Below the pieces are notes generated by a model. It was not told where the DNA came from. It worked only from the letters and a program-made list of their open reading frames with translations, and made no database searches. Both the position numbers and the translations under genes were made by a program. DNA of 64,000 nt from Strigamia acuminata (taxonomy: Eukaryota). The stretch spans positions 5,270,001-5,334,000 of the forward strand of contig OX442314.1 of the NCBI GenBank assembly GCA_949358305.1, in the 5' to 3' direction. Of this stretch, positions 28,801 through 60,633 are shown one piece after another (the first letter of the stretch is position 1; each line of letters begins with the position of its first letter).

Positions 28801-31800
28801 TTAAAGACGAGTTGAAGCTCGGCAATATCAAACTAATTCATTTACCTTCAACAGAAATGATCGCGGACTTTTTAACCAAAGCTGTGGCAAAGGATAAATT
28901 CACGGAGGGTCGAAAGGGCGTAAGCTTGAAGGACGAGGGGAAGATGAACGAGATCGAGGAGGAAGAGAAAAATGAAGACAAATAATAATTTATTCATTTT
29001 GTGTTTTTGATATTGTTGAATGTTAATTTTTAAGTTTGTTTCAAAACCCATGATAATTTATAAGCGGGGTTTGTTAGATTATGACGGTTTATAAGTGCTA
29101 TTTATTAATAACACGGCCGAATTTTAAGTGTTTTTTGCGAAACCCGCATTTGTCAATGCTCCGAGTCGCCACTAGATGGCGCGATTATAATTCAGCGGTA
29201 AATTCGAATTGCGAGTTAAGAAAACTGGTAAATAAATATAAGAATATATTTATTTATATGAAACGACACTTTATTAGGATTAATATAAATATATATTAAT
29301 AATTATTGTTCACACTAAGTGATGGGAATCTCTAGTTCAGCAGAAATGGAGATTTGATAATCCATCGATCAACCGATCGATGTGATTGGTGGATCCATTT
29401 CCGGTCCTGGGTATCCAGTTCCGGTTGTGGTGGGAATTAGCATATTGCTCCTCCGTATCCACTTCCGGCGATACGGGATTGGAGGGATTCGTGGAACCCA
29501 TGTTCCAATTGGTTGATTGGATTAATCTCTAATCCAGTCAGGTTATATAAACCCAAACAACCGGCCATCCGGCGGCTCTGTTTGATTATTTCTGTTTGGT
29601 ATTATTACTTAAGAAATATGATTCGTTGTCCATTAAAAAACCTTTTGGTTCTTTGTTGATTTATTCACAAAGAACCGCGGCATGATTCTACCGAATCATG
29701 CAACCACCGGCAATTGAAGCCGACGTATTGGATTGTTATGTTGCATACATGTTTCAAGTTACGGTCTCGCCGAGGAGAACCTGCCTTCTGTGCAATTCAG
29801 TATCCTCCGGGCAGGATTAAGTGGTCATTTTCGGTATGAACGCATCTCGTAACCGCAAGTAAGCACCGGAACTGTTGAGAGTTGGTTCCTTCACCTGTTG
29901 GTGCAAAAGCAGTCTGTTTCACAGTAACCACGAGTAGCACCAAGTGTTTGGCAAGCTGATTCTCATGGTATTTGGTGCCAAAGCAGTCGTTTTGTTATTA
30001 GTACCGCGAAGGGCTAAACTGCTGTGCGGAGCCGCGAGCTATCGACTCCTGTGTACGTGATACCGTCAATCGCTAGACGAACGACCGTGTTGCGGCGCAG
30101 GGGACGCTTGATACCGTTCTGCATGGCAAGGCGTTTTCTATCGATGGCAATTGTGTGTTGCGACGGGAAGTCTAACATTTATCCTTTACGTTTATAACAG
30201 AACAATATTAACTTGGCCACAAGTTAATTAATCAAAGTCAGGAAGACTTAAAAAACAAGAATACATTGAACTCAATGTGACAAATAAGTTGACGACAACT
30301 TATCGATGAAATATCCAGTAGAAAAACTCACAACACTTATGAATTAAATATAATTCATAATTGGAATATTGATAAGTAAATGAATACATTTACTTACACC
30401 AATATCCTCCCAAAGTTGTGGCGGTGCAGACAAAGTCAACCGCAATGCTCAGATCATTCGATTTATCGACGTGCGATAATATTACACAGCGAACCAAGGA
30501 ACCAGCGAAGCCGTATCGGACTCCAGGACACAGCCATCCGGCTTAGATGACATCTATAATCAGGTCGAGCGATGGGGAAACCGCTCCCATCTCCCAGACC
30601 CGTAATGATATTATTTTAGGGCCAGTTGGCCAATTCTTTGTATAGTTTAATAGTTGATTTAACTTGCCAAATGTCGGCATTAGTCCTATGTATAATTTAG
30701 CTCATTTCATATTGTTTGCCAACAATAAACTGTCTTGTATTTATCTCGTATTGTATTCACTGTTTATTTATTGCGATCTCTTCCCGGTACCATTGTTAAA
30801 TGGGAGTTGTGGTCGTCACCGTCACACGTGGAGGTCCCACCGAGATTAGGTTGCAATTAATTCGATTGAATTGTAAAAGTGAATTTTTTTGAGATAAATA
30901 AGGCTAAAAAATTTGTAAATAAATTTTACAAATTGCAGTTTTAGAAAGTACATTCTGTTTTCTCGAAGAAAATGAATAATACAATTCTGGACGAAGGAAT
31001 TGCAACCAGGAATTCTAAATCTATCACACGATGGTTGAGATAGATTTAATCGAAGTATTTAAAAACTAAAAGCTTCGGAGAATTTGATGGATATAAAACA
31101 CAGAATAGTTATATTTTGATATTTACTTTATTTTTCCGTGAAAAAGTAAAAGTAAGACAAGTTTAAACATGTTTAACGAATCGCAAGACAAAGAAAACTT
31201 GCAAAATATGGAACTTCAAAGCAAAATCCAGTATTAAGGAGAAGATATAATAATTGGAAACAATTGACAAAGGTTGAAAGTGAATTTATTTTATTTTTAT
31301 GAAATATATAATTTTGGGAATATTTACAAATAATCTCTCGAAGGAATTTTATTTTATCGGTAAAGACTAAAAGTCGAAAAGAACGGACTTAGTAGAGAAC
31401 TGATGACGAAAATGATACGTTCGTTATACAATCAGTTGATAACGAACCAGCCAATCAGGAACTAGGTGATCTAAGGATCCCCAGCCCCTTGCTATTAAAG
31501 GAGAGCCAGATCAGATTGAGATCATTCGCTTCCAGACCAGACCAGCAGACGTGTTTCAGTAACCATCCTGACTGCGCCATCCGATTCTAGTTACGATTCG
31601 AAGTTTTCCACCGCTAAAATAGTAAAAAAGACCGATTCAATTATATTTTTATAAAATGGATCCAAACAATCTTCCTAACGAAGAAAAAGTGGCTGAAGAA
31701 AAGGCCGTAGAAGAAATAGTTAGCTTGGATTCAAGTTATGTAAAACTTTGTGACCAAACGGAAATGATTCCCGATGAACTCACACAGTTTTGTACGCATT

Positions 31801-34800
31801 ACGAACTAGATAGAACTCAGTTCAAAACCATAATCGAAGCTTCTGAATTTGTGACGAAGCGGGCGTTACGTAACATACGTATTAATCCAACTCCGGAAAA
31901 ACGAGCAGAACTTTCGAAGGAGAGTTCGGCGAACCATAATTCTGGAAAGGACCCAATCCCGTCGCCAAGAGATCTGTCTGAAGAAAACCGATCACGATCT
32001 AAAACTCCACAACGTAAGTTGGGGGATCAAGCAAGAATTAAAACTCCGTCGGTTCGTAACCAAGATATTCGAGAATTATTTCGAACATCAAGCAAGGAAT
32101 CGCTTGATCAGTCCAGTTTAGGAAATAGAACTCCTCACTCCCGCAACGCCAGTTACCACAATACTCCAAGTATTTCGGAGGTAGGAGGATCCAATTTTTC
32201 AACTTTTCAACCTGAAAATGCTAAAAAGCAACCCAATCCACATATTTATACGGAGAATGGGACGAGACATTTTGCCAAACAAACCCCTAGAGGGCGAGGC
32301 AATAAATCCGCCATTCGACGGAAATTATCTCCACTACCATCTCCAGTCTTACCTCAAACTCGACAAGAACAATTGAGATTAGACGAAGTGGAAAAGGAAC
32401 GAATTAGGCTGGAAGCAACTAATCAAAAACAGATTAACGACGAAAAGATTCGCCAAGATAAACTTGAAAAAGAAGTTGTCAATCAAAACGAAGTTCGTAA
32501 GTCGATAGACAAAAACGATAAAATTCTAATTGATCAATTACGGGCCCAATGGCGACAGGAACACGATGAAAAGTTCCAAAAGCAACAAGATCAATACAAT
32601 AAGAAGTGGGCGGAAGTGAACAGAATTGAAGACAATCAACGCAAGCGGGAGAAAACCTTACAGGAAAGCATCCGGCTAAATCTCGCGGCGTCCACTCGGG
32701 CTAGCCATGGTAGTGAACCCCGAGACCAGACAAATCCGTCACGTGCATCTACCGATGACATTCCAAGTTCACATTCCTCGGCAGAAAGTTCTACAGGAAC
32801 TAGACTTCCCTCTGACGGAACTAATATTTCATTTGACTATATTTTGAAAATGCAACAAAATATGGCCGCCCAATTCCAAAAACAATTGGATAGTCGAATA
32901 GATACATTCGTTCAAACTCAACAAACAACTGGGCCGCAACGATCTAATAATCCAGGACCCAGTAAAGTCTTTTTCAAAGGACAAGACCTTCCAGTTTTCG
33001 ATGGAAAACAGGAGGATATAGATAAATTTTTATCAGTAGCTAAAACTGTAGCTATTTCAAAGGGATTAACTCTGGACGAAATGGTTAATCAAGGTATTCC
33101 CACCTATTTGTCCGGATTAGCCCAACAATGGTATGACGAGAATAAAACCAAGTTTACCAACTGGGAAACCTTCGTAGAATTATTTCGTGAAGAATTCGAC
33201 ATGATTCCAACTACTCGACTCCGAAATCTACGAAAAGTAATCCAAGGAGACGATGAACCTTTATATGAATTTCTAGTCAGATTCACTAAAGCCCAAGGAT
33301 CGTACTCCGAAAGAGGAAATGTTGCCACACTTTTCGACAACTTGAATTGGACAAGTTACAATAGATTAATCGATCGAAATCTATACAGGAGCGATTCAGT
33401 GGATAAAATCTTTCAATTCGTACGAACGAATAGAGCACTCTTTGAACCCCAAAGAATCCGTACAGAGAATTCCAAGGAAATTGATAAAGTGGTATCTAAC
33501 AACCAGAAGTATTCTAAAGATACCAAAAATACGAGACCTTCGGCTCGATCCACTCAAATGATGGAAATAGAGCCGGAAGAAGAAATAATGGAAGTCAATG
33601 AGTTGACAGAGAATAATGTATCAATGGATAATTTATTATGTGCCATGTCGGAAAATCAGACAGGGAAATGTTTTCATTGTAAACAACCAGGTCATTTCAA
33701 AAGAGAATGTCCTCTGCTTCCAAAGCGAAAATTTAGCAATAATTTCCCTGGAAATAATAATTCCAATAACAATAGCGCTAATCAGCAGCCGAACGAATTT
33801 AAGCGACCACGCCAAAATTGGGTAACTGCCGAAGCTATTGATCAAAAAATGGAAGAGTTAAAAACTGATATGAATAACAGTATGCAAACAACGATAAGTA
33901 AGACAGTGTCGGATTTATTTAGTAAATTCTTAGACCCGAAGAACGCTACTACGGCACCAATTACTGAAACCCCACCGGTTCCAAAAAACTAGTGGCGGGG
34001 GTCCTCGAGCCCCCTATTAATAATTCCGAAGGAATTTTACCACCAGACTTGGAACAAGCACTTTCCGAAACTTTGGATAATTTAACTATTCAAGATAAAG
34101 AAATTAAGCGTGCTCGTCCTAACCGGAAGACACGGAAAAGGAACTGGAATTATAAGTTTAAAATCGCGTCAAATACGCCCTTTTCGGCAGAGGAGACAGC
34201 AAACCCGTTCTTGAATTTTCACGACGACCTGTTTTCTCTAGATAAGGGGGACGAATCTTTAGCTAGATTGATACAAGATACATCCAATCTTAATATTCGT
34301 GATGAATCCACCAGTTCTAGTGGAGGAGTATTCGAGAATTTACAATCAATGATTGATAATTTGAATCCCGACTCCAAATCCTCCAGATTTGCGAGATTAA
34401 AATCTTACATTAACGAGAATCAGTTAAAACGAAAAGATGGCATCGAACGAATTAATAAATTGGGAAATCACATCGACGACCCCCGAATGAAAATTACAAT
34501 AGGTGGACTCACCTATAATGCTTTGATGGACTCAGGAGCCACACAGTGTTTTATTGGGTTGCAATTACTAAGTAAAACTTGTGCATCTCCCGATTTCATA
34601 CAAGATTGTCCAAAACACATGAGAGTTTGTGCAGTCGGAGTTACTCATATTCCACTAGGACAAATTACTTTGTGTGTACAATGGGCAGATGGAGCAGAAT
34701 TCACACCAATAAATTTTATCATTTTGGATAATAATGTGTGTGGATTAATTATCGGACATAATTTTATGCGCCGAACCAAAATTAATTTAAATCCAGCACG

Positions 34801-37800
34801 AGCTGTATTTACTTGCGACAGCAAGTCCGACTGGACTGCACCCTACGAAACTGACGAGTTAAATTGTAATTTAGCTCGAGTACAAGTGTTGACTGACAAC
34901 GCAACAGCCACACACACGCCAGATAATTGGGAAGAATTGCTGGTAAAGGATTGTGACTGTTCAGATGAGGAAAAAAGTAAATTACGCGAAGTAATTGCTA
35001 GTGTTAAGAACGTCTTTAGAGATAAAGTCGGATGTACTAACATAATAAAGCATAAGATCACCTTTAAAAAGGATGTAACGTGGAAAAAACAACCATTTCG
35101 AATGTATAACCCTGCTAAAATAGCCATTATGACTAAATTAGTAGAAGAATTAGAAGCGGATAATTTGATCGAAAGAGCTACTGGACCTTACATAAGCCAT
35201 CCAGTGATCGTAGCCAAACCAAATGGTACTTATCGTTTATGTATCGATTATCGGTGGTTGAATGCAATCACCGAAATTAACGCCATACAAATGCCAAGTA
35301 TTGATTTGTTACTCCACAATACAAATCAGGCAAAATATTTCACGTCTCTTGACCTTACCAAAGGTTATTATCAGGTCGAGATGGACGAGGAAGATAGACA
35401 GAAAACAGCCTTTTATACTCCGAAAGGCAATTACCAATTTGTCCGCATGCCTTTTGGTCTTTGCAATGCGCCGTGTACATTTCAGTTCTTAATGGAACGA
35501 GTGATGGGCGAAGCATTATACAAACACGCGTTAGTCTATTTGGACGACGTGATAATCTTCTCCACCACTTGGGAGAAACATCTTGAACATATCAAAGATG
35601 TGTTGGAAAGACTAGATAAGGCCAACTTATCAGTAAATAAAGAAAAATCAAAATTTGGAAAAACTACACTCAAATTTTTGGGTCATTTGATAACTCCAAC
35701 CGGATTAGCACCTGACCCAGACAAGATAGTATCCGTTAGGAAATATCCAACTCCTAAGAATTCCAAGGATATTCAACGATTTCATGGCTTGTCAAATTTC
35801 TTCCGGAAATTTATTCCCGAACATGCAAAAATTGCTAGGCCTCTAACTAGCATGATGCATGATAAAGCAGTGTTCGAATGGGGAGAAGAACAAGAGAAAG
35901 CTTTTGAAACAATAAAAAATATTTTATGTGACGAAACACAGGTTTTGTTAATGCCAGATATGATGAAACCATTCGTAATCTTGACAGACGCATCGCATGA
36001 TGGACTTGGTAGTGTGTTATGCCAAGATGTAGAATTCTTCGATGAAGGAAAAAGAGAAATGATCATGACTCCTAGACCCGTAGCTTATGCTAGTCGAGTC
36101 TTACGAGGGGCAGAAGTACGCTACTCAACACCCGAACTCGAGTGTTTAGCAGTAGTATGGGCAGTCGACAAATTCCGACCGTATATCGAATATACGACTT
36201 TTACTTTGGAATCAGACGCCGAAGCATTAAAATGGCTGATGGGAACACCAGAACCATCGGGACGATTTGGTCGTTGGGCAATTAAACTTCAATGTGGCGC
36301 CTTTAAGATTAAATATCGACGAGGTACCCAGAACCAAGTTGCCGACGCCTTCTCGAGAGCGCCTTTGGAGATCGAAGACATCCCAGAGAATGATTATTGT
36401 GAGCCAATCGAGATTACTCAATTCTGGCCGGAATGGGACGGAAATCGAGAAATTATTCGAAGGAATAATAGAGAAGATTGCCAATTTCTCACGAATGTGC
36501 AGCTTCATTTCGATTATTCCAAATTATTATACAATACTTTGGAAAAGGGGGAGAAGATGGATGAAGCTACAGAAGAAACACTATTTAGTGCTTTAACTGA
36601 AGTTTTAAAGGAAGTTCCACCGACTCGAGAAGAAATTATAAAAGCTCAACTAGCCGACAAAGAGTGTAGAATAATAATCGATCATCTGAAACGAGCTGAA
36701 ATCGAACAAAGAAAGTTTAAGAAAACTAAAGAATGGATGAAAGCAGTCCAAGGTTACCAATTAGATTTTCAAGAAGAAAATGGTAATGAAATGCTGATTT
36801 ATTTCAAACCAACGTTTGAAGAGGAATTGAATGACTCTGGAAACGGATTTAAAGCTGTCATTCCACCGTCATTAGTACGAAGAGTACTGTTTGCCTGTCA
36901 CGGACATCCATTAAGTGGACATGCAGGGATGAGTAAGACGCTCGAACGAGCAAAACTTATATATTACTGGCCGAAGATGAATAAAGATACTCGCAATTAC
37001 GTCCGAAGTTGTATTCATTGCCAGCAATACAAGCCCTGTCAACATAAAAAGCATAGAGCGAGTTACACTCCTCATAACATGTCTTACCCGTGGGAAGTAA
37101 TCTGCATTGATTTAATGGGTCCCAAACCGACAGGAAGAAGCCAATACAGATTTGTATTAGTAATTATAGATCAATGTACTAAATGGGTAGAATTATTCCC
37201 TTTAAGTAAGGCATCTAGTGAATCTATTGTGAATAGGTTAGGAGAAGTGATTCATAGATGGGGATACCCAAAGAAAATTGTTAGTGATAACGGGAGCCAA
37301 TTCATATCCACGATTTATGAAGAGTTTTGTAAAAAACACAACATCAGAATGGCTCATGTGAGTCCATATCACGCTCAGGCCAATCCTACGGAAAGGGCCA
37401 ATAGAGACATCAAAATAATGCTGGCTCTTTATTCAGACATTCACTCCCATTGGCCGAGATTCTTAAACGAATTTGCATTTGCCTCGAGAACGGCTAAATC
37501 AGAAGCTACAGGCGCAACGCCATTCTTATTGAACACAGGAAGAAATGTACCTCTTCCCTTTGATCCTCGGATCATTCAACATGCAAATGCATTTGACAAG
37601 AATAACCCGGAAGAATACGTATATAATTTACTTGGAATTTTACGTCGAGCACATCAAGAGATGCATTTGCGTATTCAAGCAAATTATGAGAGACACGACA
37701 AGATTCACAGAAATAAATTTCACATTTGTGAATATACTGTCGGTGATTTGGTATGGAAAGCCACTCACATCCTTTCAAATAAAGAGAAAGGAATTACTAA

Positions 37801-40800
37801 AGGTTTCGCCGAGAAACGAGATGGACCGTGGGAAATTACGGAAGTTTTACCTGGAGGTGCTTATAAGTTGAGAAAATTAGTTGATGGATCAATAGAACCA
37901 TCCATAAATACTGATGATCTCTCACCTTATATCCCATCTTACCCGATTGAGACTTGGACACTCGACCAAAAGAGTGGAAGAATAGAGAATCACCCAAACC
38001 CTGATTGGATGAACGAAAGTTCAACCGTAAATAATTCAAGTGAATTAAATAATCAAGAATTAGGAAATAATTCTGCTAATATGGAATTAGATCCCGAAGA
38101 AGTTACAACACCCGCTTCAAAAGAAAGCGACATCGTAGTTAATAATCCAAAACATGATTATAACCTTAGGAAAAGGAAAAGAAGTTGTGAACTTTCACAA
38201 CTGCAACCTCGTACGAAGCGAATTTCTACGACAGATCAAGAATGCACAACAGATTTTATACATCTGATTCAAGATCGCCGCTAGTGATAGCGTATTTTTT
38301 TAAATAAAAATTTAAAAAAAGATAAAAAATCGGGTCACTTTTTGACCCACAAATTAGTCATGGTTAAATCATAAACCTATAGGAGAATAGGGTGAAAATA
38401 CCCCGGGTAGAGAGTAGAGGATTTGTTCTCTCACAAGCTTCACACACATGTGCGAGTCAACTTTGACACCTGCGTCGATAGAAAAGTTCGTCGCGATTTC
38501 TTTCAAGAAAACCTCGAGATTCGTGGTAAGACTCATGTATTACCAGTAAACTCGGAAAATTATGTGTCAGGACTTAATGTTATAATCCTTTCATGATAGA
38601 AAAGGACGAGAGAAAACTTCGGTGATTAATTTCGTCTGAAAGAGACGAACACGTGACCTCGGCGTGAAGAAGAAAATTTCTCCTTCGAGAAAATTCGAAA
38701 TATCATCACGCCAGTTCAACGTTTACTAGAGTGTTACGTGTAAGTAATGATAAATTTAATATATCAAGAGATATTCACGGCTATTTTATATATAAAATTA
38801 GGATTTCTACGTTGGCGGAGAACACCTTCGCTAAAAACAACGAGTTTTGTCAATTAGAAAATCGGCACCACATCATTTTGAATACTTAAGTGGATTCCGG
38901 AGATTCCTAGTGTAAGTATTCTAAAGATAATTCTATCGAATATTACGAATAGTAAAAAAGCCGCACGTAAAATCCCGATATAAAAATATATCGAAACCAT
39001 CGATAAAGTTGATAAATTTTCACGATAGATGGCGGTATAAATTTTGTTAAATAAATCGTATTGATAAGATTCTCTATATTATTTTCTCTAGAAAAAATGG
39101 GAAAAAAGATCGAAAAAAAGAGAAAATACGTGTTGGTCGAATCCTCGCCTTTGGAGATCGAAGACATCCCAGAGAATGATTATTGTGAGCCAATCGAGAT
39201 TACTCAATTCTGGCCGGAATGGGACGGAAATCGAGAAATTATTCGAAGGAATAATAGAGAAGATTGCCAATTTCTCACGAATGTGCAGCTTCATTTCGAT
39301 TATTCCAAATTATTATACAATACTTTGGAAAAGGGGGAGAAGATGGATGAAGCTACAGAAGAAACACTATTTAGTGCTTTAACTGAAGTTTTAAAGGAAG
39401 TTCCACCGACTCGAGAAGAAATTATAAAAGCTCAACTAGCCGACAAAGAGTGTAGAATAATAATCGATCATCTGAAACGAGATGAAATCGAACAAAGAAA
39501 GTTTAAGAAAACTAAAGAATGGATGAAAGCAGTCCAAGGTTACCAATTAGATTTTCAAGAAGAAAATGGTAATGAAATGCTGATTTATTTCAAACCAACG
39601 TTTGAAGAGGAATTGAATGACTCTGGAAACGGATTTAAAGCTGTCATTCCACCGTCATTAGTACGAAGAGTACTGTTTGCCTGTCACGGACATCCATTAA
39701 GTGGACATGCAGGGATGAGTAAGACGCTCGAACGAGCAAAACTTATATATTACTGGCCGAAGATGAATAAAGATACTCGCAATTACGTCCGAAGTTGTAT
39801 TCATTGCCAGCAATACAAGCCCTGTCAACATAAAAAGCATAGAGCGAGTTACACTCCTCATAACATGTCTTACCCGTGGGAAGTAATCTGCATTGATTTA
39901 ATGGGTCCCAAACCGACAGGAAGAAGCCAATACAGATTTGTATTAGTAATTATAGATCAATGTACTAAATGGGTAGAATTATTCCCTTTAAGTAAGGCAT
40001 CTAGTGAATCTATTGTGAATAGGTTAGGAGAAGTGATTCATAGATGGGGATACCCAAAGAAAATTGTTAGTGATAACGGGAGCCAATTCATATCCACGAT
40101 TTATGAAGAGTTTTGTAAAAAACACAACATCAGAATGGCTCATGTGAGTCCATATCACGCTCAGGCCAATCCTACGGAAAGGGCCAATAGAGACATCAAA
40201 ATAATGCTGGCTCTTTATTCAGACATTCACTCCCATTGGCCGAGATTCTTAAACGAATTTGCATTTGCCTCGAGAACGGCTAAATCAGAAGCTACAGGCG
40301 CAACGCCATTCTTATTGAACACAGGAAGAAATGTACCTCTTCCCTTTGATCCTCGGATCATTCAACATGCAAATGCATTTGACAAGAATAACCCGGAAGA
40401 ATACGTATATAATTTACTTGGAATTTTACGTCGAGCACATCAAGAGATGCATTTGCGTATTCAAGCAAATTATGAGAGACACGACAAGATTCACAGAAAT
40501 AAATTTCACATTTGTGAATATACTGTCGGTGATTTGGTATGGAAAGCCACTCACATCCTTTCAAATAAAGAGAAAGGAATTACTAAAGGTTTCGCCGAGA
40601 AACGAGATGGACCGTGGGAAATTACGGAAGTTTTACCTGGAGGTGCTTATAAGTTGAGAAAATTAGTTGATGGATCAATAGAACCATCCATAAATACTGA
40701 TGATCTCTCACCTTATATCCCATCTTACCCGATTGAGACTTGGACACTCGACCAAAAGAGTGGAAGAATAGAGAATCACCCAAACCCTGATTGGATGAAC

Positions 40801-43800
40801 GAAAGTTCAACCGTAAATAATTCAAGTGAATTAAATAATCAAGAATTAGGAAATAATTCTGCTAATATGGAATTAGATCCCGAAGAAGTTACAACACCCG
40901 CTTCAAAAGAAAGCGACATCGTAGTTAATAATCCAAAACATGATTATAACCTTAGGAAAAGGAAAAGAAGTTGTGAACTTTCACAACTGCAACCTCGTAC
41001 GAAGCGAATTTCTACGACAGATCAAGAATGCACAACAGATTTTATACATCTGATTCAAGATCGCCGCTAGTGATAGCGTATTTTTTTAAATAAAAATTTA
41101 AAAAAAGATAAAAAATCGGGTCACTTTTTGACCCACAAATTAGTCATGGTTAAATCATAAACCTATAGGAGAATAGGGTGAAAATACCCCGGGTAGAGAG
41201 TAGAGGATTTGTTCTCTCACAAGCTTCACACACATGTGCGAGTCAACTTTGACACCTGCGTCGATAGAAAAGTTCGTCGCGATTTCTTTCAAGAAAACCT
41301 CGAGATTCGTGGTAAGACTCATGTATTACCAGTAAACTCGGAAAATTATGTGTCAGGACTTAATGTTATAATCCTTTCATGATAGAAAAGGACGAGAGAA
41401 AACTTCGGTGATTAATTTCGTCTGAAAGAGACGAACACGTGACCTCGGCGTGAAGAAGAAAATTTCTCCTTCGAGAAAATTCGAAATATCATCACGCCAG
41501 TTCAACGTTTACTAGAGTGTTACGTGTAAGTAATGATAAATTTAATATATCAAGAGATATTCACGGCTATTTTATATATAAAATTAGGATTTCTACGTTG
41601 GCGGAGAACACCTTCGCTAAAAACAACGAGTTTTGTCAATTAGAAAATCGGCACCACATCATTTTGAATACTTAAGTGGATTCCGGAGATTCCTAGTGTA
41701 AGTATTCTAAAGATAATTCTATCGAATATTACGAATAGTAAAAAAGCCGCACGTAAAATCCCGATATAAAAATATATCGAAACCATCGATAAAGTTGATA
41801 AATTTTCACGATAGATGGCGGTATAAATTTTGTTAAATAAATCGTATTGATAAGATTCTCTATATTATTTTCTCTAGAAAAAATGGGAAAAAAGATCGAA
41901 AAAAAGAGAAAATACGTGTTGGTCGAATCCTCTTCCTCCGATGAAGAAGTAACGGCACCTCCTTCGGCCGCTGCCGTATTCGTAGAAGGGTGTCCCAAAA
42001 CACCCGTGATTATCAACGCCAGAGGCTGGGATATTTTGAGTTGGGCTCGCCAACATCCCGAATTGCTCCCCGCTGAGCTTGGTCCACCCGGAACCCCCAC
42101 GTTACAGGAGGAACCGGCCAAAAAAGAATCAACGGCGAAGCCATTTGTTATTCCAAAGATAAAAGCGGATGATTTCGCCAGAAATAATCCGCCAATTGCA
42201 AAAAACCAGCCAAGTACCAGTAAACCGCGAAAGGTGGAAATTGTGTACAACCGAGTCAAGTCGCCCGAACGAAGAAGGAAATCCCCACCAATGGAAGCTA
42301 AACGCCGCCGAAATCCGGAAGACGCTACACCTTCCTCTTGTAATGGCCAAGAGCGTCCAAAAAGAGAATACGTTAGATTTAACGATTCACCAGACCGAGA
42401 CCGGGAAAAAAGGTCGTATTCCTCCTACCGAAGGTCCGACCGACCTAGGAATAGGTCAAATACCAGCGCATGGTCAGAGCGCCAAAAGTTGGCAAATAAA
42501 GTTCGTCAGATCCAGAAAAGACGAGAACAGTGTAAACAAGATAAAGAGAACGGAAAACCACATGATGATATGGTACTCTCGAAGGACGAAGTGCCATGTC
42601 CTTTTTGTTCCGCCGTCGGGTGGGTCTCGGGATCGGGAACCGGAGGCCACCTGGCGCAATGTTCCAATTGCGAGGGCACAAAGAAGCGGCCCAAAGGCCA
42701 ACCTTGGCGCCCCAGCTTTCTGCCGTTTGTGGTCATGGGAATTCACCCTCCCCCGGCCAGGTTGTGGGCAACTTGCCCGGAGTGTAAAATTGTCCTCTCC
42801 AGTGACGGAAGATCGCCGTACATCAGCCCGGAGTTCTTGAACGCCATAACCACTCCACTAGGAAGGGAAATGCAAGATCTGAGAATTCCGCCAGAAGCTC
42901 TAGAGAGTTCCCGAAAACCACAGAGTACGACAGTCATCGATAAAGGATGTCAAACGGTATCCAAGGAGAACGAAAAAGAAGCCGAAAATGAACTTCTTGT
43001 GGAACCCTTTTTCCCTCCACCAGGAGCGAAAATAGCGCATCTATTCGAATACGAGGTGAGCTACTATTTTCCGACGCTTTTTAGAATTGCCGAGAAAATC
43101 ACGGAACAAATGCGCTCAGACTCTACCGATCCCTCGAATATCAATTATGCTGTCCATGTGATGAAATTGATATTTAACGCCAATCGAGGCGAATCTTTTG
43201 CTGTGCTGGAGCACATATGGACACTGTTAATTGACAGAGTCAACACCGACGGAAAAGGATTAATAAACCCTTCATGGTTCTACGGACTCCCCTGCATTGC
43301 GGAGATATACGACGCTTCGAAGAAGGCTATTGAAGAAAGTTATGAGTTAGTTGAGAAGACTCCAGAATATGAACCAAGGTCTCCGGAGTACGCGCCGAAA
43401 TCTCCACCCGCAGAAGATATAGGTGAAGAACCCAATTTCGTCATCGACCGAAGACCAGCGGAATTTCTTCCCCTAGAAAAGTCCGAAGTCGGTGAGTCCA
43501 GTGAGACTCTTAAGAAAGAGAGTGAAGGATCGGAGTCTGATGAAGAAGAAGTCAAGTGACTCGCGGAGTTAATTTTCGAATTTAATAGAATTTAAGGAAA
43601 AAATGTTAGAATTAACGAAAAACTCAAAAGTATTCTGTTTAGTATTTAATAAGCGGTTGTGATATGCAAAAGTCATGTTATTTTTAAAAAAAGGAAAATC
43701 GAGAGATAATCCTATAAATCAAAAGAAATCTTTTAATAATTGTTAAGCTAAAAAGAAATAATTTACCAAAAAAATTATGTTAAGATTCCCGTTATTTGAA

Positions 43801-46800
43801 ATAATAATTGTGTGAAGAAATGAGGCTAAGTGTTGTAAAGTTCCAAGTTTGTTTTATTGTAACCAAATAATATTTTATTCTTGATAATTCATTAAAAAAG
43901 AATTGTTGCGCACATCAGAAATATGAAATTTATTTTGAGTCACCCGCATACGCACTCAGCTGTTCGGGATGAAAAAAGTCCTGTTTTGAGATATTAATAA
44001 AATCATTTCGCAAGAATAACATAAACTTATGAATAAAATTTATAAGTTGAGTAATTAAGGGGGATGTATGACGGTTTATAAGTGCTATTTATTAATAACA
44101 CGGCCGAATTTTAAGTGTTTTTTGCGAAACCCGCATTTGTCAATGCTCCGAGTCGCCACTAGATGGCGCGATTATAATTCAGCGGTAAATTCGAATTGCG
44201 AGTTAAGAAAACTGGTAAATAAATATAAGAATATATTTATTTATATGAAACGACACTTTATTAGGATTAATATAAATATATATTAATAATTATTGTTCAC
44301 ACTAAGTGATGGGAATCTCTAGTTCAGCAGAAATGGAGATTTGATAATCCATCGATCAACCGATCGATGTGATTGGTGGATCCATTTCCGGTCCTGGGTA
44401 TCCAGTTCCGGTTGTGGTGGGAATTAGCATATTGCTCCTCCGTATCCACTTCCGGCGATACGGGATTGGAGGGATTCGTGGAACCCATGTTCCAATTGGT
44501 TGATTGGATTAATCTCTAATCCAGTCAGGTTATATAAACCCAAACAACCGGCCATCCGGCGGCTCTGTTTGATTATTTCTGTTTGGTATTATTACTTAAG
44601 AAATATGATTCGTTGTCCATTAAAAAACCTTTTGGTTCTTTGTTGATTTATTCACAAAGAACCGCGGCATGATTCTACCGAATCATGCAACCACCGGCAA
44701 TTGAAGCCGACGTATTGGATTGTTATGTTGCATACATGTTTCAAGTTACGGTCTCGCCGAGGAGAACCTGCCTTCTGTGCAATTCAGTATCCTCCGGGCA
44801 GGATTAAGTGGTCATTTTCGGTATGAACGCATCTCGTAACCGCAAGTAAGCACCGGAACTGTTGAGAGTTGGTTCCTTCACCTGTTGGTGCAAAAGCAGT
44901 CTGTTTCACAGTAACCACGAGTAGCACCAAGTGTTTGGCAAGCTGATTCTCATGGTATTTGGTGCCAAAGCAGTCGTTTTGTTATTAGTACCGCGAAGGG
45001 CTAAACTGCTGTGCGGAGCCGCGAGCTATCGACTCCTGTGTACGTGATACCGTCAATCGCTAGACGAACGACCGTGTTGCGGCGCAGGGGACGCTTGATA
45101 CCGTTCTGCATGGCAAGGCGTTTTCTATCGATGGCAATTGTGTGTTGCGACGGGAAGTCTAACATTTATCCTTTACGTTTATAACAGAACAATATTAACT
45201 TGGCCACAAGTTAATTAATCAAAGTCAGGAAGACTTAAAAAACAAGAATACATTGAACTCAATGTGACAAATAAGTTGACGACAACTTATCGATGAAATA
45301 TCCAGTAGAAAAACTCACAACACTTATGAATTAAATATAATTCATAATTGGAATATTGATAAGTAAATGAATACATTTACTTACACCAATATCCTCCCAA
45401 AGTTGTGGCGGTGCAGACAAAGTCAACCGCAATGCTCAGATCATTCGATTTATCGACGTGCGATAATATTACACAGCGAACCAAGGAACCAGCGAAGCCG
45501 TATCGGACTCCAGGACACAGCCATCCGGCTTAGATGACATCTATAATCAGGTCGAGCGATGGGGAAACCGCTCCCATCTCCCAGACCCGTAATGATATTA
45601 TTTTAGGGCCAGTTGGCCAATTCTTTGTATAGTTTAATAGTTGATTTAACTTGCCAAATGTCGGCATTAGTCCTATGTATAATTTAGCTCATTTCATATT
45701 GTTTGCCAACAATAAACTGTCTTGTATTTATCTCGTATTGTATTCACTGTTTATTTATTGCGATCTCTTCCCGGTACCATTGTTAAATGGGAGTTGTGGT
45801 CGTCACCGTCACAAGATTTAATTGTTGTAAATTATCATTTGTTTGACGTTTTATCCAAGTTTGTAATGTTTGCGACACGTTATGCGCGTGTCATTCTATT
45901 ATTGTAAAAACTTTTTCTGAAGAGTAAAGACGTGTTTTTCTGTTCCGTTAACGTGTGATCTTTTAATTCGATTTGGACATTCGAAATACAACACATTCTT
46001 CAACGTGCTGAAAATGTTTCGAACGTTAGTCCTCGCGGCTTCCCTTTGTCTTCGGTTCTTCTCCAAATCTGCCATTGCAATCGATTTTCCTTGGTTTTCT
46101 TTTAAAAAGTCCCGGGTTTCGGCACCATATGTTGCGGCTGCAACTCGAATTGTAATATTGGACAAATAAAAGTTACTTTGAATTCTCGATGTTTCTGAAA
46201 TTGGGCTGATTCTTGAAGATGACAAATAAAGCACACGTTCACACGGATTTACATTTGACAGTAATTAATTTATTCAAAAACGGAAATAGGTAATGTTCTA
46301 TTCCCTACCCTTAACTGTAACAATAAATCATCCCAGTACAGAGTGGGTCACCGAAGTGACCCTCTGGTGGCCAAACATGGCGCCACCTACAATTCCCCCT
46401 AAATGTTGACTTCTACAGGAACTCCAGTTTCCACATAGATGCAATTGCTCAGGAAATATTTGGAGAGGACAAGACTTTTAGAACACTCTGTATATTGTTT
46501 AATTTGTTACCATAATTTCTCTAAGCATAACTTCATTTATCCATCCATAGATTAACGCCAATGGTTCCAGGATGTTAACTTCCTCTTCTTTATTATTCAG
46601 GAATAACTGAATAATATAAGATAATTAAAAATTATTTGCTAGCATATTGGATCACTTCCTGTAATTGATGAGTAATTTCAGACAAATCAGTCACAATTCA
46701 TTTGAGTACACCTAGGTTGGGCCACCTATAACCGGTACTATACAGCCTATTGTACTGGTTATAAGTGGCCCAAATAAAACAGGCCCAACAATAGTAATCC

Positions 46801-49800: not shown

Positions 49801-52800
49801 CAAGTACCGGGTACTTTCGCCGCCATGCAGTACCGGTACCGGGATTTTGCGGTACGCGAGAAAACACGAGATTCTCGTGTTTTCTCCCGTTTTCCACGAT
49901 AATAAAGTTAAAAAGTGTATGTTTTGCTGCAAATTCAATACCCCGGATTGGCTACTACAACAAGCATGCGTAATCCAAATAAACAGTCGTTTGAATTTTA
50001 ATGAAAATTGGAAATTTAAAATTAGACTCATTCAAATTGAGTGCGCAAAGTAAAGTGCGGCGACGCCGAAGCCTGCCCGTCTCACACGAGATACGCGAGT
50101 AATAATTCCCGGCGTATTGAATTTGCAGCAAAACATACACTTTTTAAGTTTATTATCGTGGAAAACGGGAGAACGAGAATCTCGTGTTTTCTCGCGTTTT
50201 CTCGAGTACCGCGAGATGTACCGCAAAATCCCGGTATCGCTACTGTACCGGGACCGCGGTACTTTTTTAGGACGCAGCAAGTACCGCGTACCGGTACCGC
50301 GTTACTCTTGGCGGACGCAGCAAGTACCGCGTACCGGTACCGCGTTACATTTCTCCTTTGGCGCAAGTACCGGTAACGGTACCGCGGTACGTGTTGGAAG
50401 TACCGTGCCCAACACTGCTATCCAGTTGTGACGAGTTCTGAGCATGCTCAGAACAAGTATTGCAAATGGCTGCCAAACCAAGATGCAAAAGATCAACGCA
50501 ATGTGGCCTAAAACAAAAAAAATATGTGCTCAAAAATTCTAAAAACCACATGCATCTCTTTTTCTTGTGTTAATTAGAAGTTCATGGAAGTTTTAAAATT
50601 TTAGAGCACACATTTTTTTTGTTTTAGGCAACATTGCGATGAGCGAATTAGATCGGAAAAGAATGCGGCCAAAAAGGTCTAATTACATTTCTAATGGCGA
50701 AATGGAAGAAATTATAAATTATAAATTATAAATAATAGTGAGTTTGCGGTTGCCAATTGTTCCTTATAATTATCAGTTACAAGCTCATAATTATAAAAAT
50801 GGACTTATAACATAACGTAACTCCTCAACTTTTACACTATTTTGTAAAATAAGGGAGCCAATCAGATCGCTTAACACTATTGGAAGCTCCTCTCACTATT
50901 GCAAATGGCGCTGATGGTGCTAATGGAAATTCAAAATGGCTGCCTGACCTGTTTCAACATTCAGCCTCAATCACAATTTCTTTCTGCCATCGAAGGATAT
51001 AAACAACTAAAATCATTCCAGGTAAGCAAATAAATAAACTGGAAGACAATTTCATGTATGAAAACTGTCAAATTAGTAAAACTACAGATTTTCATTTTCT
51101 TTTGCATAGGGATTTGTTCTACCATTACATGGTATTGTATAAGTATAATTTATAAAATATATTTATTGTACCGCAAGTGCCTATTTCAAGAAGGAATTAT
51201 AATTATAATTATGAGCTTGTAACTCATATTATAAGGAACAATTGGCAACCGCAAACTCACTAATGTCGCGCTAGATGTGCGCATCTAGCGCGACATTATT
51301 TACCGAGACATGAATCTTCCGCAACAAGCCGTCCTGAAAAATGGTTTTGCATAAAAAAACCAGTAAGGTTAGTTTTGCGGGGGGTCAAGGGGGGGCGCAG
51401 CCCCCCCCCCCCTTGTTAGGGCCTTCTTAGGAATTGGAAGAAGAAATACCCAAAATACAAGTTCCAAAGTCGCGCTAGATGACACGCCCACAGATTCGCC
51501 ATTGGAAACGCAAATAACGTTTCCAATAGCAAATTTCAATATACACGTTTCCAACGGCGAATTTCCGAGATTCGCCATTGGAAACGTCAAAATAGCTTTC
51601 CAATGGCGAATTTTGGACGATTCGCCGTTGGAACGGGTACCCCTTCTACTCTCACAGTTTTTACTGGCCTTTAATCTTACTTTTTCTGGGTACTCGTAGA
51701 ACTAAGCTTGTAAGGAGAACTGAATTCAAGTTTATATGTATATTTATTCGTGCTTACGAACGTATACCTGTATTGATTTGTGTACAATGTCCAAAAGGAA
51801 GGGGAATCAGACTTTTTGATGCATTCAGAATTGTTTTATATCCACGAAAATACTATAAATATCAAATAATTTAATCTAATATTTCACCCATGGTTATATT
51901 TAAGAAACATACCTTATCAGCTATTTCATAATTAAGTGTGACTGTTTCATGGACGTTGAGTTTTTCCCAGATTTCTTCCAATGATAAATTGTTGTTGAAC
52001 AATTGCCAGGGTGATATGTTATTGCAGGTCTTGTTAGTTTGATTCATTAAGTTCAACTTGGTTTTATCAATTTCACCATCTTGTGGTTCACCACAGACCG
52101 TCACAGACGGATATTGGGTAAAGCGTCGTTGAACTACGAGTACTGTTTTTGTTATCGGTTCTTCAATGTAGTAGTTCAAACGAATTTTCAAGCAATACAA
52201 AGTGAATCCAGTGCATATTATAACCAGAATTGTCTTAAGATCAAGTGAAATTACATTTCTTTGTTGACTCACAATTATATTTTTTGTGAATTTGTCATAA
52301 ACACGGCGAATCTTATTAACCGTTTTTTTTTTCCGAATGTTTGTTAGATACCATGCGATTTCAGGCAACGAGGTTAAAGATAGACCGAGAAATAGGCCCA
52401 GATTGCCTCCTAAATCTGATAGTAAAGCAATAACATCATATGTGTACCGTTCTTCATACACGGTGATTTTATCATTGGTTGCTAACGATGCAGATATGGT
52501 GTTTTTATCATCTGCTATGCCCGCGTCGGCGTATGTTATAAACATTAACTGTTCACATGGACGTCGACACAGACAATCAGCAATTGGGTCGGTAGTTTCA
52601 ATTAAACGATTTGCAATACCATATAGTTCATGGGTGGTATTTGAACATTCACAGAGTGGTAAATCTGTCTTTGTAAAGGGTAATCTGGCAAAGATGATGT
52701 TTCATTTATTTATATTTTTATTTTAGTTGTATTTGTGTATTGTGCATCTTACCTGCATAACACACATATTTTTAATTTTTTAAGTAAGCATTCACGATAA

Positions 52801-53879: not shown

Positions 53880-55742
53880 TATACAGTAATTCTGTAGTTT
53901 CCGTATTTGGGGCCAGACCAGAGCTGAGTTCAGACTTGGCTCTTCAATTCTGTTTACTGTAATGTCTTATGTCGCATGGTAACTCTTTCTATGACAATGA
54001 TCGATTCATTTATAGAAAATATAAAAAATATGGACTTGACTATCTTGACCGCCCTCTTAGGGAACAATTAAAATTGATTTTATTCTGAAAGAAAATATTT
54101 TTTTGTCATTTTTGGTCGCATGACTGCACCTTTGCACACGCGCACAAAACATTTCTATCCATCTGATTCAATAATTTCAATTTTGCTAATGAGATGTAGT
54201 CAAGTCAACCAATAAACATAACACAAATAAGAATTTTCTAGAAAAGTAATTCTTAATCACTTAAGAATTGGTCTCCCCTGTCTCCCTAAGATGGGCATTT
54301 TTTGACCCAGATTCTGAGCATGCACAACATCCGGGTCTTAGGGAATTTCAAAGGAATTTGGCCAACACATGTTGTTCACCACAACAAAGATGGCCGCTGC
54401 TGCATCAAGGACACATGCAAATGTCCCTTTGCCATCAATTTTATGGACATTTTGATACAGAAAATATACATTTTGATCTATTTAATATGTTTTGATCAAT
54501 TTTTTATATTTTGATTAATTTTTTTAATCTTTGGGTTCAAATTCAGGGTTTGCGCGATAGCTAATTGCGCATGCGCAGTCTTGCCAGCGCCCTCTAGTGG
54601 CGAAATTCGTAAATACGACTGAGGGACACGTGTTTCTAACTACACGTGTTTTTACCGGTTTTTAAGCATCTAGCATGGCAATTCCAAGTGCTTTTTATTT
54701 TCAATCGTTCAAAGGTAATTGGGGGAAGAGTTTATAAACTTTTCCTTCTATAAAAAAGGAATGCATAGCAAATTTTCTGCAAAACAATTCAGAAAAAAGG
54801 TATAAATATGCTTTTGGAGGAGGATATGTCAAAAAAATTTTGACAATTCACAATCCTCATCCAAATATTGAAGTGGCTGTGAAATGTGATGTTTTGCCAT
54901 CCCAGAGACCACACCCTCACAGTGTTTGTGTTACATTTTCAAAAGAAAATATTTTGGATGCAAATTGTTCCTGTCCAGCTGGGTTAGTATTATTTTAATT
55001 TTTTTTAAAAATAAATGTGTAACTAATGTGTTCTTGTGGAATGATGATTGAAATAAAGTTGGACAAGGTTAAAAGACAGCCATGTTGTACGGTAAAATTA
55101 ACATAAGTGATTTATTTAACAAAAATACAGTAGGTGGCGCTTTGACAGGAAGCGCGTCAATAATTATCATATTTCAAAGATGGGGTCGAAACACCCCAGT
55201 AACAATCTCAATTTTTGTAGATTATCTGCATCATGCCACCATGTTGGAGCATTGCTAGAGGTTTTGTTATTTTTTTTGGAAAAAAAATTTATGCTGATTC
55301 CAGATGACAAATCTTGCACTGAAGTTTTATGCAAGTGGCTGCCACAAATTGGAAGTGGCACGTGCAAGCGCATAAATGATCTGTCTATACAACGGCATGA
55401 ACAGGTATTGTTAAATAAAATTTACATTTTAATTGTTACTTTAATGTTTTAATAAATAAATTACTAGGGAAAATTTTAACGCTGCAAATCAAAAAGACCT
55501 GTTCCAGAGGAATATGATCCACGTGCAGAACAACACCGCAGTATAGACAGCTATCAACTGAAGTCTCTTTTTCAGAGTAGCGGTCTAACTTCTGCTTTTT
55601 TTGTAACACATAATGCAGGTTTGTTTAAATTTGTGTTAAAAAAATAATAATTAGTCTGATTAATTAATTATTTAATTAATTAAATTTTAACTAAATATTT
55701 ACTGTATTCAAATAGATGTAACTGTAAGTTCTGCAGCTGTAC

Positions 55743-56742
55743 TGTCACGGCCCGGCATTTACGCGCTTTGTAATCCTCACCTAATTGTTGTGTTGTGCGC
55801 GTTATTCCGTGTGTTTTCCACCATTGTTAAAACTCCCAATAAATCCCTAAACCTATTTGTGTTTGAATTTGAGTTTTGATTTGTCCTCATTTCCTATTCA
55901 TGTTTATTCCTTGACCTGGCCTGGTGTGGCTCAATTTGGCTACATCAGACTAGTCTAAGTCAGGTATTTCCCACTGTTACCCCTCCTGATTTCGTTTAGT
56001 TTATCCTACCTAATTTAAATGTTTAGTCACTCGCGACTGACTCATCGCGATGATTATTCACGAGCGCGCCTGATTGGCCCACGCGTGCTTGACTCATGGT
56101 TCTCCCCTTGTTTTCTGTGATAGACTTGGCCCAAGTTCACTTCTGAGCGTTTTCAGCCAAGTCCGATCAGAAGGCATCAGACCATGAGCTATCGTAAGTG
56201 CCTTAACTGGCCGTTGTGCATTTGGCAGTCTCTCCTGTGTTAACTCACAGTATAACTCCATGCCACGTAATTGTGCATGTTTGAGTATATTCATGGTCAT
56301 ATCGCGTGCTTAATCCCGCGTCTCACCTTTGAATTCCTTTCCCTTCGTTGATCTTTTGTGTTTACACGACGTTTTATGCCGCTGACGTGCCTCTGGACTA
56401 GAAGTTTGATTCGAGTAGCTAGCGAGTTATTATTTCGTCTTTTGTGCGCGATCCGCGCGCGCTTGCTCGGTCTGGCCACTCCGCCTCCAGGAGTCCCATC
56501 CAGATTAGCATTAGCCACGCTAGCGTTGTTTAGTCCGCGCGTGTGCATCATCTTCTATTTTTACGATTCCAACAAACCCGGTAAAATTTGTGAAATGATC
56601 GAATAGGGGAATAAGCTTGCCGCCACCCTCCAGGCTGCTTATTGTTGCCCGGGCCCTTATTCGGGACCAGGCTCTCCCAGTATCGTAACTGGCGCGCCTT
56701 TCAAACGCGGTTTCAATCATCCGAAACAACCGGTTCATGACA
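55743..56742 (+). repeat. 5' LTR of the RT-less Gypsy
   Basis: TGTCACGG ... CATGACA, followed by cg + TGGTGCCGAAACCCGGGA. Confidence 0.95.
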
Positions 56743-56958
56743 CGTGGTGCCGAAACCCGGGACCTTGTTGGAATTTTTTCAGTCTCGTTGCGCATATAAA
56801 CTGCTTGCTATCTAACAAAGCATCAGTGGCGTTTTTAGAGATTTTGCCAAAGGGAAGGTTTCGAAGTTTGTATAACTTATCATATTTTTTTGCGTGTTGT
56901 TTAAATACAACGCGTTTTATTTGCATTGAGTTGCTAGTGCCCTTATTATCTTGTTAAG

Positions 56959-60057: not shown

Positions 60058-60633
60058 CACCGACGACGGGGAGCCTCTTCCACCAAGGCGAGGCATCTAC
60101 ATCGTTACATGTTACGCGTTGGAGTCGAGGCGCGAAAGAACTTGAAAATCGCGAATTTACGTCACAAGCGATGGTATGACAGGAAGCGGAGGCCCCACGA
60201 CTTCAAGCCTGGCGACTGGGTCACGCTGAAGAGCAGGATTCTTTCGTCGGCCGACAAGCAGGTCTCCGCGGGATTTCAGCAACGAACGGAGGGAATTTAC
60301 ATCATACACCGGATCATCGGGCCGAACACCGTGCTGCTGATGAAGGAGGACGGCAGTGTCACTCAGCCTTACCACATAGTGGACCTTCGACATTGGTACA
60401 GCGACCCCGAGGAAGACGCGAGGGTGGCGGCGGATGCTTTGGACCCTCCGGACGCGCTGAGTATGGCTGGAACTGGTGGCAGCGCCAAGTATTTTATTTC
60501 CAAGGCGGACATGGACGATATTCACGCCCGAGTGGACAAATTCAGTGCGGAATCACGCGAGATTTGCATGAAGTATTACGCCGAAAATAGGGTTCGGCTG
60601 AAGGATTGTGAGTTGGGAGAAAGTTCGTCATAA
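59774..60633 (+). pseudogene. Integrase C-terminal remnant (frameshifted)
   Basis: YHPQGNLAERLNQSLK..W..AINSSYQTSLKFSPY and, in another frame, YDRKRR..FKPGDWV..ILSSADK; HHCC and the first catalytic Asp residues are missing. Confidence 0.85.

What the first reader, a model, noticed from the sequence alone, without database searches (positions are those of the whole stretch)
41883..43559. Gypsy ORF3 in the env position is a nuclear-looking Zn-finger protein, not an envelope
Seen: an intact 558-aa ORF in a very young element, with no signal peptide or TM anchor. It has a Lys/Arg N-terminus, an Arg/Ser-rich disordered region (KSPERRRKSP, RSYSSYRRSDRPR), CPFCSAVG-..-CSNCEGT (resembling the DnaJ-type CxxCxGxG finger), CPEC, a probable helical domain and an acidic tail. 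Known: third ORFs of animal Gypsy elements are usually env-like. Inference: an accessory regulator (transactivator, RNA export or splicing factor, or anti-silencing protein). Together with the spliced leader and long structured LTR, it suggests a complex-retrovirus-like regulatory system in a retrotransposon.
Basis: partly seen in the sequence, partly recalled or inferred. Interest (0 to 1): 0.78.

Follow-up and report, generated by a model that had tools for sequence, protein, structure and literature searches.

The report
Centipede-type Gypsy nuclear accessory gene
A young Gypsy retrotransposon carries, where retroviruses keep their envelope gene, a conserved gene for a soluble, likely zinc-binding nuclear protein that probably helps the element's own full-length RNA survive and leave the nucleus, a kind of helper known from a nematode retrotransposon but not with this protein.

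Summary
Confirmed. [quoted passage not shown] It has no hydrophobic anchor and matches no env family. It is a real gene: 24 of 39 listed variants in sister copies are synonymous (28% expected) and the listed coding indels keep the frame. Its only credible homologues among 1.84 billion proteins are three Strigamia centipede gene models, two joined to a closely related pol; four Cys of a DnaJ-like finger plus a second Cys/His set are conserved. A strong splice acceptor sits 5 nt before the ATG. New here: two tandem Pol II CTD-like heptads and an MTR4 arch-interacting-like motif in the tail, a phospho-SIM-like stretch at the start (post hoc, untested). Best reading (0.4): a nuclear factor that protects and exports unspliced element RNA, like CERV of C. 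elegans Cer1; rivals are transactivator and anti-silencer. No fold was obtained; no expression shown. The concept is not new (CERV), and this scan noted similar but unrelated ORF3s on other DNA; the protein family appears new.

The parts
29080..30826 (+). 5' LTR (about 1.75 kb); TATA-like box near 29544, AATAAA near 30724
   Evidence: identical to 44067-45813 over 1747 nt; motifs; 4-5 nt target duplication
30829..30846 (+). primer-binding site (looks complementary to a tRNA-Gln 3' end; that assignment is recalled, not tested)
   Evidence: sequence directly behind the LTR, starts TGG
31656..33992 (+). gag, 778 aa, one CCHC knuckle
   Evidence: zf-CCHC E 4.5e-6
33983..34015 (+). likely -1 frameshift site: slippery heptamer followed by a hairpin
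   Evidence: 51-nt stretch folds at -17.7 kcal/mol; pol frame opens at 33968; function inferred
33968..38284 (+). pol: PR-RT-RH-IN
   Evidence: nearest named relative Strigamia T1IZB8, IN 62.6% identical
36360..41932 (+). 2786-nt tandem duplication (3' pol, intergenic region, first codons of ORF3), one mismatch
   Evidence: real or assembly artefact not decided
39097..41070 (+). chimeric ORF made by the duplication: ORF3 start fused in frame to end of RH and IN, 657 aa
41858..41877 (+). splice-acceptor-like site (pyrimidine tract + TAG) 5 nt before the ORF3 ATG
   Evidence: among the 9 best of 1076 AG sites of the element by pyrimidine count; 8 short upstream ORFs lie between pol stop and ORF3
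41883..43559 (+). ORF3, 558 aa, non-env accessory gene
41889..41948 (+). basic NLS-like stretch followed by phospho-SIM-like motif (aa 3-22)
   Evidence: post hoc pattern; 0.1-1.3% of block shuffles; not in the Strigamia models
42255..42458 (+). Arg/Ser/Pro-rich disordered region (aa 125-192); RxxRSYxxxRR shared with two Strigamia models
42495..42857 (+). conserved basic helix + Cys/His module (aa 205-325): C239, C242, C260, C263 (DnaJ/anti-TRAP-like) and C217, H227, C298, C301
   Evidence: first six invariant in 4 of 4 sequences, C298/C301 in 3 of 3 that reach them; zinc binding inferred
43035..43352 (+). predicted helical domain (aa 385-490); W446, W465, L469-P470 shared with T1IH97
   Evidence: 8 synonymous of 10 listed variants
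43368..43409 (+). two tandem Pol II CTD-like heptads, Y-x-P-x-S-P-x (aa 496-509)
   Evidence: 0 of 5000 block shuffles, 0 tandem matches in 156,275 aa of pol proteins; the two units differ at all 4 codons of shared residues
43434..43457 (+). MTR4 arch-interacting-like motif (aa 518-525) in the acidic tail
   Evidence: fits the consensus of PMC6662825 and shares FVID with the DNTTIP2 motif; strict pattern in 4% of shuffles, loose pattern in 33%
44057..44064 (+). polypurine tract
44067..45813 (+). 3' LTR

Best explanation
ORF3 is a conserved, non-envelope accessory gene of a centipede-type Gypsy lineage whose protein is likely made from a spliced message, likely enters the nucleus, and probably acts as an adaptor that protects the element's unspliced full-length RNA and gets it exported. 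Shown: gene intact, selected, not env, old and linked to related pol genes. Inferred steps: (1) a leader or LTR donor is spliced to the acceptor 5 nt before the ATG, since eight short upstream ORFs bar scanning from the genomic RNA; (2) the basic start carries it into the nucleus; (3) the Arg-rich helix and two predicted zinc sites recognise element RNA (or the LTR); (4) the disordered tail recruits or decoys host factors: CTD-like heptads for CTD kinases or CTD-binding processing factors, and an arch-interacting-like motif for MTR4, which would keep the nuclear exosome off the intron-containing RNA; (5) the full-length RNA then reaches the cytoplasm for Gag-Pol synthesis and packaging, as CERV does for Cer1.
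For: Selection: 24 synonymous of 39 listed in-ORF variants against 28% expected, p 1.6e-5; 8 of 8 in-ORF indel rows add up per contig to multiples of 3, 4 of 4 rows upstream of the ATG do not. Age and linkage: Strigamia models T1IH97 and T1IMA5 hold pol and ORF3 homology in one chain (E 8.6e-32, 8.1e-26); nearest named pol is also Strigamia. Not env. Splicing; the T1IH97 model joins IN to ORF3 two codons before the matching Met-Gly start; one contig of run X6 stops matching within 2 nt of the acceptor, with 138 unlike letters before. Motifs. Precedent: CERV, same position, spliced, nuclear, Cys loop with invariant Arg, needed for gRNA export (PMC10309623); NRDE2 binds MTR4 and protects mRNA for export (PMC6499326, search listing only).
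Against: No activity, location or RNA binding was tested. No homology to CERV was shown or tested. Both folds failed (mean pLDDT 37.6 and 34.7). The tail and start motifs were picked after looking, are short, and are absent from the three Strigamia models, whose ends may be scrambled by gene prediction. The listed variants in the Cys/His module are mostly non-synonymous (1 of 6 synonymous, none at a ligand). NES-like patterns occur at chance level (6 found, 7.2 expected). The X6 upstream piece could not be placed in the LTR or leader above chance and the kind of that run is not on record. Only 40 of 391 variants were listed, chosen by support, and they are not independent. Simple retroviruses splice env without any Rev-like protein (established knowledge), so splicing does not require this function. 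An acidic tail with aromatic residues fits an activation domain as well.
Confidence: 0.4

Rival explanations
1. ORF3 is a transcriptional transactivator of the LTR (Tas/Tat/Tax-like): the zinc module binds LTR DNA or a nascent RNA hairpin, and the acidic tail with CTD-like heptads draws in elongation kinases.
For: Basic plus Cys/His module followed by an acidic tail under constraint (6 of 6 listed tail variants synonymous); CTD-like heptads; long CpG-rich LTR (1.75 kb, CpG o/e 1.21) with several stable hairpins. Many viral proteins work through P-TEFb (PMC7070488, passages).
Against: No known DNA-binding family matched; LTR folding no stronger than pol; Arg/Ser-rich region and MTR4-like motif point to RNA handling; one search listed no invertebrate Gypsy transactivator.
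Confidence: 0.25
2. ORF3 is an anti-silencing protein that binds SUMO-modified chromatin repressors through its phospho-SIM-like start and blocks piRNA/heterochromatin or DNA-methylation silencing of its own family.
For: Phospho-SIM-like motif beside the NLS, kept through synonymous or conservative changes; Strigamia methylates transposons and its Copia elements captured a chromatin reader (PMC6673714, abstract); faster change in the disordered and Cys/His regions could reflect conflict.
Against: Motif absent from Strigamia models; no chromatin-reader or known suppressor domain matched; PxVxL-like pattern at chance level.
Confidence: 0.15
3. ORF3 has a cytoplasmic or particle role (assembly, RNA chaperone, nuclear import of the integration complex) or is a highly derived env.
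For: It sits in the env slot behind an env-like acceptor; basic and Cys-rich proteins can be nucleocapsid-like.
Against: No hydrophobic segment, no env family, no similarity to Gag; sequons and furin-like sites lie only in the basic disordered part.
Confidence: 0.1
4. ORF3 is a recently captured host gene or a passenger without use to the element.
For: GC3 0.47 against 0.34 in gag and pol suggests a separate origin; T1IU31 is a stand-alone model without pol.
Against: No host family among 1.84 billion proteins, Pfam, PDB or the Atlas; homologues linked to pol in a distant relative; purifying selection across copies.
Confidence: 0.05

Closest known systems
CERV of Cer1, Ty3/Gypsy element of C. 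elegans (PMC10309623; passages read)
   Same: ORF between pol and 3' LTR, not env; spliced; NLS; Cys-rich region with invariant Arg; similar size (517 vs 558 aa); lineage-restricted.
   Different: CERV shares N-terminal exons with Gag and has a G-protein-like domain and ring-forming M domain. ORF3 has its own ATG (the spacer after the acceptor varies by 1-2 nt among copies), no Gag similarity, a CxxC-type eight-ligand module and CTD-like/AIM-like tail motifs. CERV is reported to have no homologues outside nematodes; homology was not tested directly.
Errantivirus/retroviral Env (ORF3 of insect gypsy)
   Same: Position and a splice acceptor just ahead of the start.
   Different: No signal peptide, fusion peptide or TM anchor; no family match; Gag here has a CCHC knuckle.
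Non-env ORF3s of bdelloid LTR elements (GDSL, DEDDy; PMC5408684, passages) and plant additional ORFs of Retand/Grande (PMC7264820, passages)
   Same: Family-specific extra ORF between pol and 3' LTR; some plant ones are nuclear.
   Different: Those are recognisable enzymes, TM proteins or antisense ORFs; this one is a sense, orphan Cys/His protein.
DnaJ/anti-TRAP CxxCxGxG zinc finger
   Same: Two CxxC pairs with following Gly; perfect CxxCxGxG twice in T1IU31.
   Different: Only sub-threshold scores; one finger, flanked by a second conserved Cys/His set; no J domain.
MTR4 adaptors with arch-interacting motifs (NVL, ZCCHC8, NRDE2, DNTTIP2; PMC6662825 and PMC13542088, passages) and CTD analogues such as PIE-1 (PMC10395837, passages; its heptad-like motif is recalled)
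   Same: Short motifs in a disordered tail fit the published AIM consensus and the Y-x-P-x-S-P register.
   Different: Host proteins, no homology; binding untested; searches listed no retrotransposon protein with either motif.

Membership tests
Ty3/Gypsy LTR retrotransposon | LTR-PBS-gag-pol(PR-RT-RH-IN)-PPT-LTR with target duplication | tested here: met
Env / viral fusion glycoprotein | signal peptide and C-terminal TM anchor | tested here: not met
   highest 19-residue hydropathy 0.95; hydropathy only, no SignalP/TMHMM
Env / viral fusion glycoprotein | sequence match to an env or fusion family | tested here: not met
CERV | ORF in env position, not env, Cys-rich, with NLS | tested here: met
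CERV | sequence or fold homology (H, M, G domains) | tested here: inconclusive
   no nematode protein among the 4 hits; folds failed; no direct comparison made
CERV | N-terminal exons shared in frame with Gag | tested here: inconclusive
   a donor-like site at 32014 would join in frame in this copy, but the spacer before the ATG varies by 1-2 nt among copies, which argues against a required fusion
CERV / Rev-like export factor | needed for export of unspliced RNA | not testable with these tools
   needs cells
DnaJ-type zinc finger | CxxCxGxG repeats scoring above family cut-off | tested here: inconclusive
   four Cys invariant in 4 of 4; best E 0.019-0.13, below cut-offs
MTR4 arch-interacting motif | x-aromatic-x-x-D-(x)1-2-G/P in a disordered region | tested here: met
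   aa 518-525; the loose pattern arises in 33% of shuffles, so this is weak
MTR4 arch-interacting motif | binds the MTR4 KOW domain | not testable with these tools
   no MTR4 sequence or complex prediction was available
Spliced subgenomic gene | junction seen in RNA | tested here: inconclusive
   no run on record as RNA; one contig of unknown kind breaks at the acceptor

The most novel reading that the evidence does not exclude
A retrotransposon protein that mimics the Pol II CTD and carries an MTR4-docking motif, so that it hijacks host RNA processing at its own loci: it would suppress early 3'-end formation at the poly(A) signal of the 5' LTR, shield the unspliced RNA from the nuclear exosome and license export. 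That would be a transposon-encoded antagonist of nuclear RNA surveillance, on a new two-zinc fold, kept across centipede-type elements for a very long time.
Probability: 0.2. Interest if true: 0.85.

Novelty: new variant of a known kind. Interest (0 to 1): 0.6.

Why it matters
How LTR retrotransposons get intron-containing RNA past nuclear surveillance is known for few elements, and of the papers found here only CERV shows an animal Gypsy ORF3 with a tested nuclear role. An unrelated protein in the same slot, conserved in arthropod elements, would show that Rev-like or Tat-like regulators arose repeatedly outside retroviruses and that the env slot is a general place for accessory genes. The short tail motifs give direct, cheap binding tests (MTR4, CTD readers, SUMO).

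Tried and rejected
No whole genome is held for this window, so copies could be seen only through contigs of public runs. Word-indexed search with aa 200-520 found nothing among 1756 candidates; the 4-sequence profile found only T1IU31, itself in the profile, among 3318. P0003 (E 2.8e-4) is a tandem-repeat protein and was dropped as spurious. No related loci in metagenome or viral contigs. Atlas: no usable hit for the whole protein or aa 200-330. PDB sequence searches gave only chance rows (seryl-tRNA synthetase E 0.05, TMEM106B E 0.43). Pfam ZNF512_C2HC (E 0.0018, below cut-off) covers only part of the Cys cluster and was not accepted. PHROGs and NCBIfam: nothing above cut-off. Both AlphaFold2 models were unusable; Foldseek on the first gave no match at E 0.001 and says nothing. 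Complex prediction for a homo-dimer was not available. None of the 120 pol hits carries ORF3 homology, which is expected as they are pol-only chains. No RNA holder listed. No Rfam match in the element. An obligatory Gag-ORF3 fusion was considered and set aside. The apparent stop at codon 221 is an artefact of scoring two linked changes singly. Special LTR structure rejected. Gypsy sub-clade was not assigned: no labelled references were at hand. A paper search for the PIE-1 heptad motif found nothing. Whether sister subfamilies keep the tail motifs is left open in this report. Supplements of PMC13524379 (element lists that include Chilopoda genomes) were not read and could bear on novelty.

Full report
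Observation. The ORF at 41883-43559 is intact and encodes 558 aa; the longest open frame in 2000 shuffles of the same DNA was 319 aa. It belongs to a Gypsy element spanning about 29080-45813: LTRs identical over 1747 nt, a primer-binding site, gag with a CCHC knuckle, a slippery site with hairpin, pol in the order PR-RT-RH-IN, then ORF3, a polypurine tract and the 3' LTR. The element is inserted in the 3' LTR of a Copia element.

Not an envelope. The highest 19-residue hydropathy is 0.95. No env or fusion family matched in Pfam, the PDB or 1.84 billion representative proteins. ORF3 is not similar to Gag.

A real, selected gene. Contigs of four public runs of one coded organism hold many copies at 80-100% identity. 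Of 391 differing places 40 were listed, 39 in the ORF: 24 synonymous and 15 not, against 28% synonymous expected (p 1.6e-5, ratio about 0.25). By region: N-terminal disordered part 8 of 16 synonymous, Cys/His module 1 of 6 (none at a ligand), linker 1 of 1, helical domain 8 of 10, tail 6 of 6. The rows were chosen by support and are not independent. All 8 indel rows inside the ORF add up per contig to multiples of three, as does one 69-nt skip, whereas 4 of 4 rows just upstream of the ATG do not.

Conservation. phmmer over 1.84 billion proteins gave 4 hits. One is a tandem-repeat protein and was dropped. Three are Strigamia maritima gene models: T1IH97 and T1IMA5 contain pol segments followed by ORF3 homology (28-34% identity) and are near-identical to each other there; T1IU31 is a more distant, short model. 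The nearest named pol is also from Strigamia (IN 62.6%; other named hits 42% or less), so the host is probably a myriapod (inference). Invariant in 4 of 4 sequences are R213, R214, C217, G224, H227, C239, C242, G246, W247, G250, C260, N262, C263, G265 and W275; C298 and C301 are kept in 3 of 3 that reach them. This suggests two zinc sites, an inner DnaJ/anti-TRAP-like finger (only sub-threshold scores) and an outer Cys/His set. Two Trp and Leu-Pro of the helical domain align with T1IH97. Wider searches found nothing more. Both AlphaFold2 models failed (pLDDT 37.6 and 34.7), so the fold is unknown.

Expression. Eight short upstream ORFs lie between the pol stop and ORF3, and a pyrimidine tract plus TAG ends 5 nt before the ATG, among the 9 best of 1076 AG sites. 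The T1IH97 model joins two codons ahead of the matching Met-Gly. One low-depth contig of run X6 matches 41880-41962 and has 138 unlike letters before it; they could not be placed in the LTR or leader above chance and the run is not on record as RNA. Splicing is therefore likely, not shown. A donor-like site in gag would join in frame in this copy, but the spacer before the ATG varies by 1-2 nt among copies, so ORF3 most likely starts at its own ATG. The LTR folds no better than pol and has no Rfam match.

Short motifs, all picked after looking. Residues 496-509 are two tandem heptads in the Y-x-P-x-S-P register of the Pol II CTD: 0 of 5000 block shuffles and no tandem match in 156,275 aa of pol proteins; the two units use different codons at all four shared residues, so the repeat is kept at the protein level. 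Residues 518-525 fit the redefined MTR4 arch-interacting consensus (PMC6662825, passages) and share FVID with the DNTTIP2 motif (PMC13542088, passages); the strict pattern arises in 4% and the loose one in 33% of shuffles. Residues 7-21 are an NLS-like stretch and a phospho-SIM-like motif (label recalled; 0.1-1.3% of shuffles). None is in the Strigamia models, whose ends may be mis-predicted. NES-like patterns are at chance level.

Mechanism. The best-supported reading (0.4) is a nuclear adaptor that binds the element's unspliced RNA through its Arg-rich helix and zinc module and uses its tail to engage or decoy CTD-linked processing factors and MTR4, so that full-length RNA survives and is exported. 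Gene reality, selection, age and non-env nature are shown; splicing, location, zinc binding, RNA binding and every partner are inferred. Rivals: LTR transactivator (0.25), anti-silencing factor (0.15), cytoplasmic or particle role (0.1), passenger host gene (0.05).

Comparison with what is known. CERV of C. elegans Cer1 is a 517-aa nuclear protein from a spliced message whose unique part lies in the env position; its Cys loop and an invariant Arg are needed for export of genomic RNA (PMC10309623, passages). It is the closest functional precedent; homology is not evident and was not tested directly. Bdelloid elements carry GDSL and DEDDy ORF3s (PMC5408684, passages), plant elements carry nuclear additional ORFs (PMC7264820, passages), and Strigamia Copia elements captured an MBD (PMC6673714, abstract). 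A metazoan survey of env-carrying elements included Chilopoda genomes but its main text does not mention centipedes (PMC13524379, passages; supplements not read). PMC13269885, PMC7070488 and PMC10395837 were read as passages for context. Searches listed no report of this protein family, nor of a retrotransposon protein with CTD-like or arch-interacting motifs; the library lacks most subscription papers. This scan has noted non-env zinc-finger ORF3s in two other genomes (unchecked notes, none similar in sequence).

Verdict. Observation confirmed; interpretation partly supported. A new, old, lineage-restricted protein family filling a known kind of role, with testable motifs that would make it much more interesting if they work. 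Interest 0.6; new variant of a known kind.

Noticed in passing
window 36360-41932: 2786-nt tandem duplication inside the Gypsy element, one mismatch, at most 1 nt of junction homology, giving an in-frame ORF3-start/IN chimera of 657 aa. Template switch or assembly artefact; no listed contig bridges it (32 of 8765 pieces shown).
   Followed up: partly
window 24572-29079 and 45814-45993: Intact-looking Copia element (1367-aa frame); the Gypsy element is inserted at the very start of its 3' LTR; the empty site is seen in runs X2 and X3.
   Followed up: partly
window 55743-62183: Second young LTR element (1000-nt repeats, 99.6%) with gag-protease (1039 aa) and an integrase C-terminus-like frame but no RT or RH match: looks non-autonomous.
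   Followed up: no
window 16324-23881: BEL/Pao element on the minus strand, interrupted by a DNA transposon with about 300-nt terminal inverted repeats (17382-20264) that holds an HTH/DUF4817 frame.
   Followed up: no
window 62388-62981: YqaJ/viral alkaline exonuclease-like frame on the minus strand (E about 2e-9).
   Followed up: no
window 51871-53966: Exons of an amiloride-sensitive sodium channel (DEG/ENaC) host gene on the minus strand.
   Followed up: no
window 29544-30760: If the TATA-like box at LTR position about 465 and the AATAAA at about 1645 are both used, R would be over 1.1 kb and hold a donor-like (29859) and an acceptor-like (30200) site; the 5' LTR poly(A) signal would need suppression.
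   Followed up: partly
window 29077-41900: The Gypsy RNA folds better than shuffles throughout (mean z -1.2 to -1.5) compared with the neighbouring Copia (-0.28) and BEL (+0.21) frames.
   Followed up: partly
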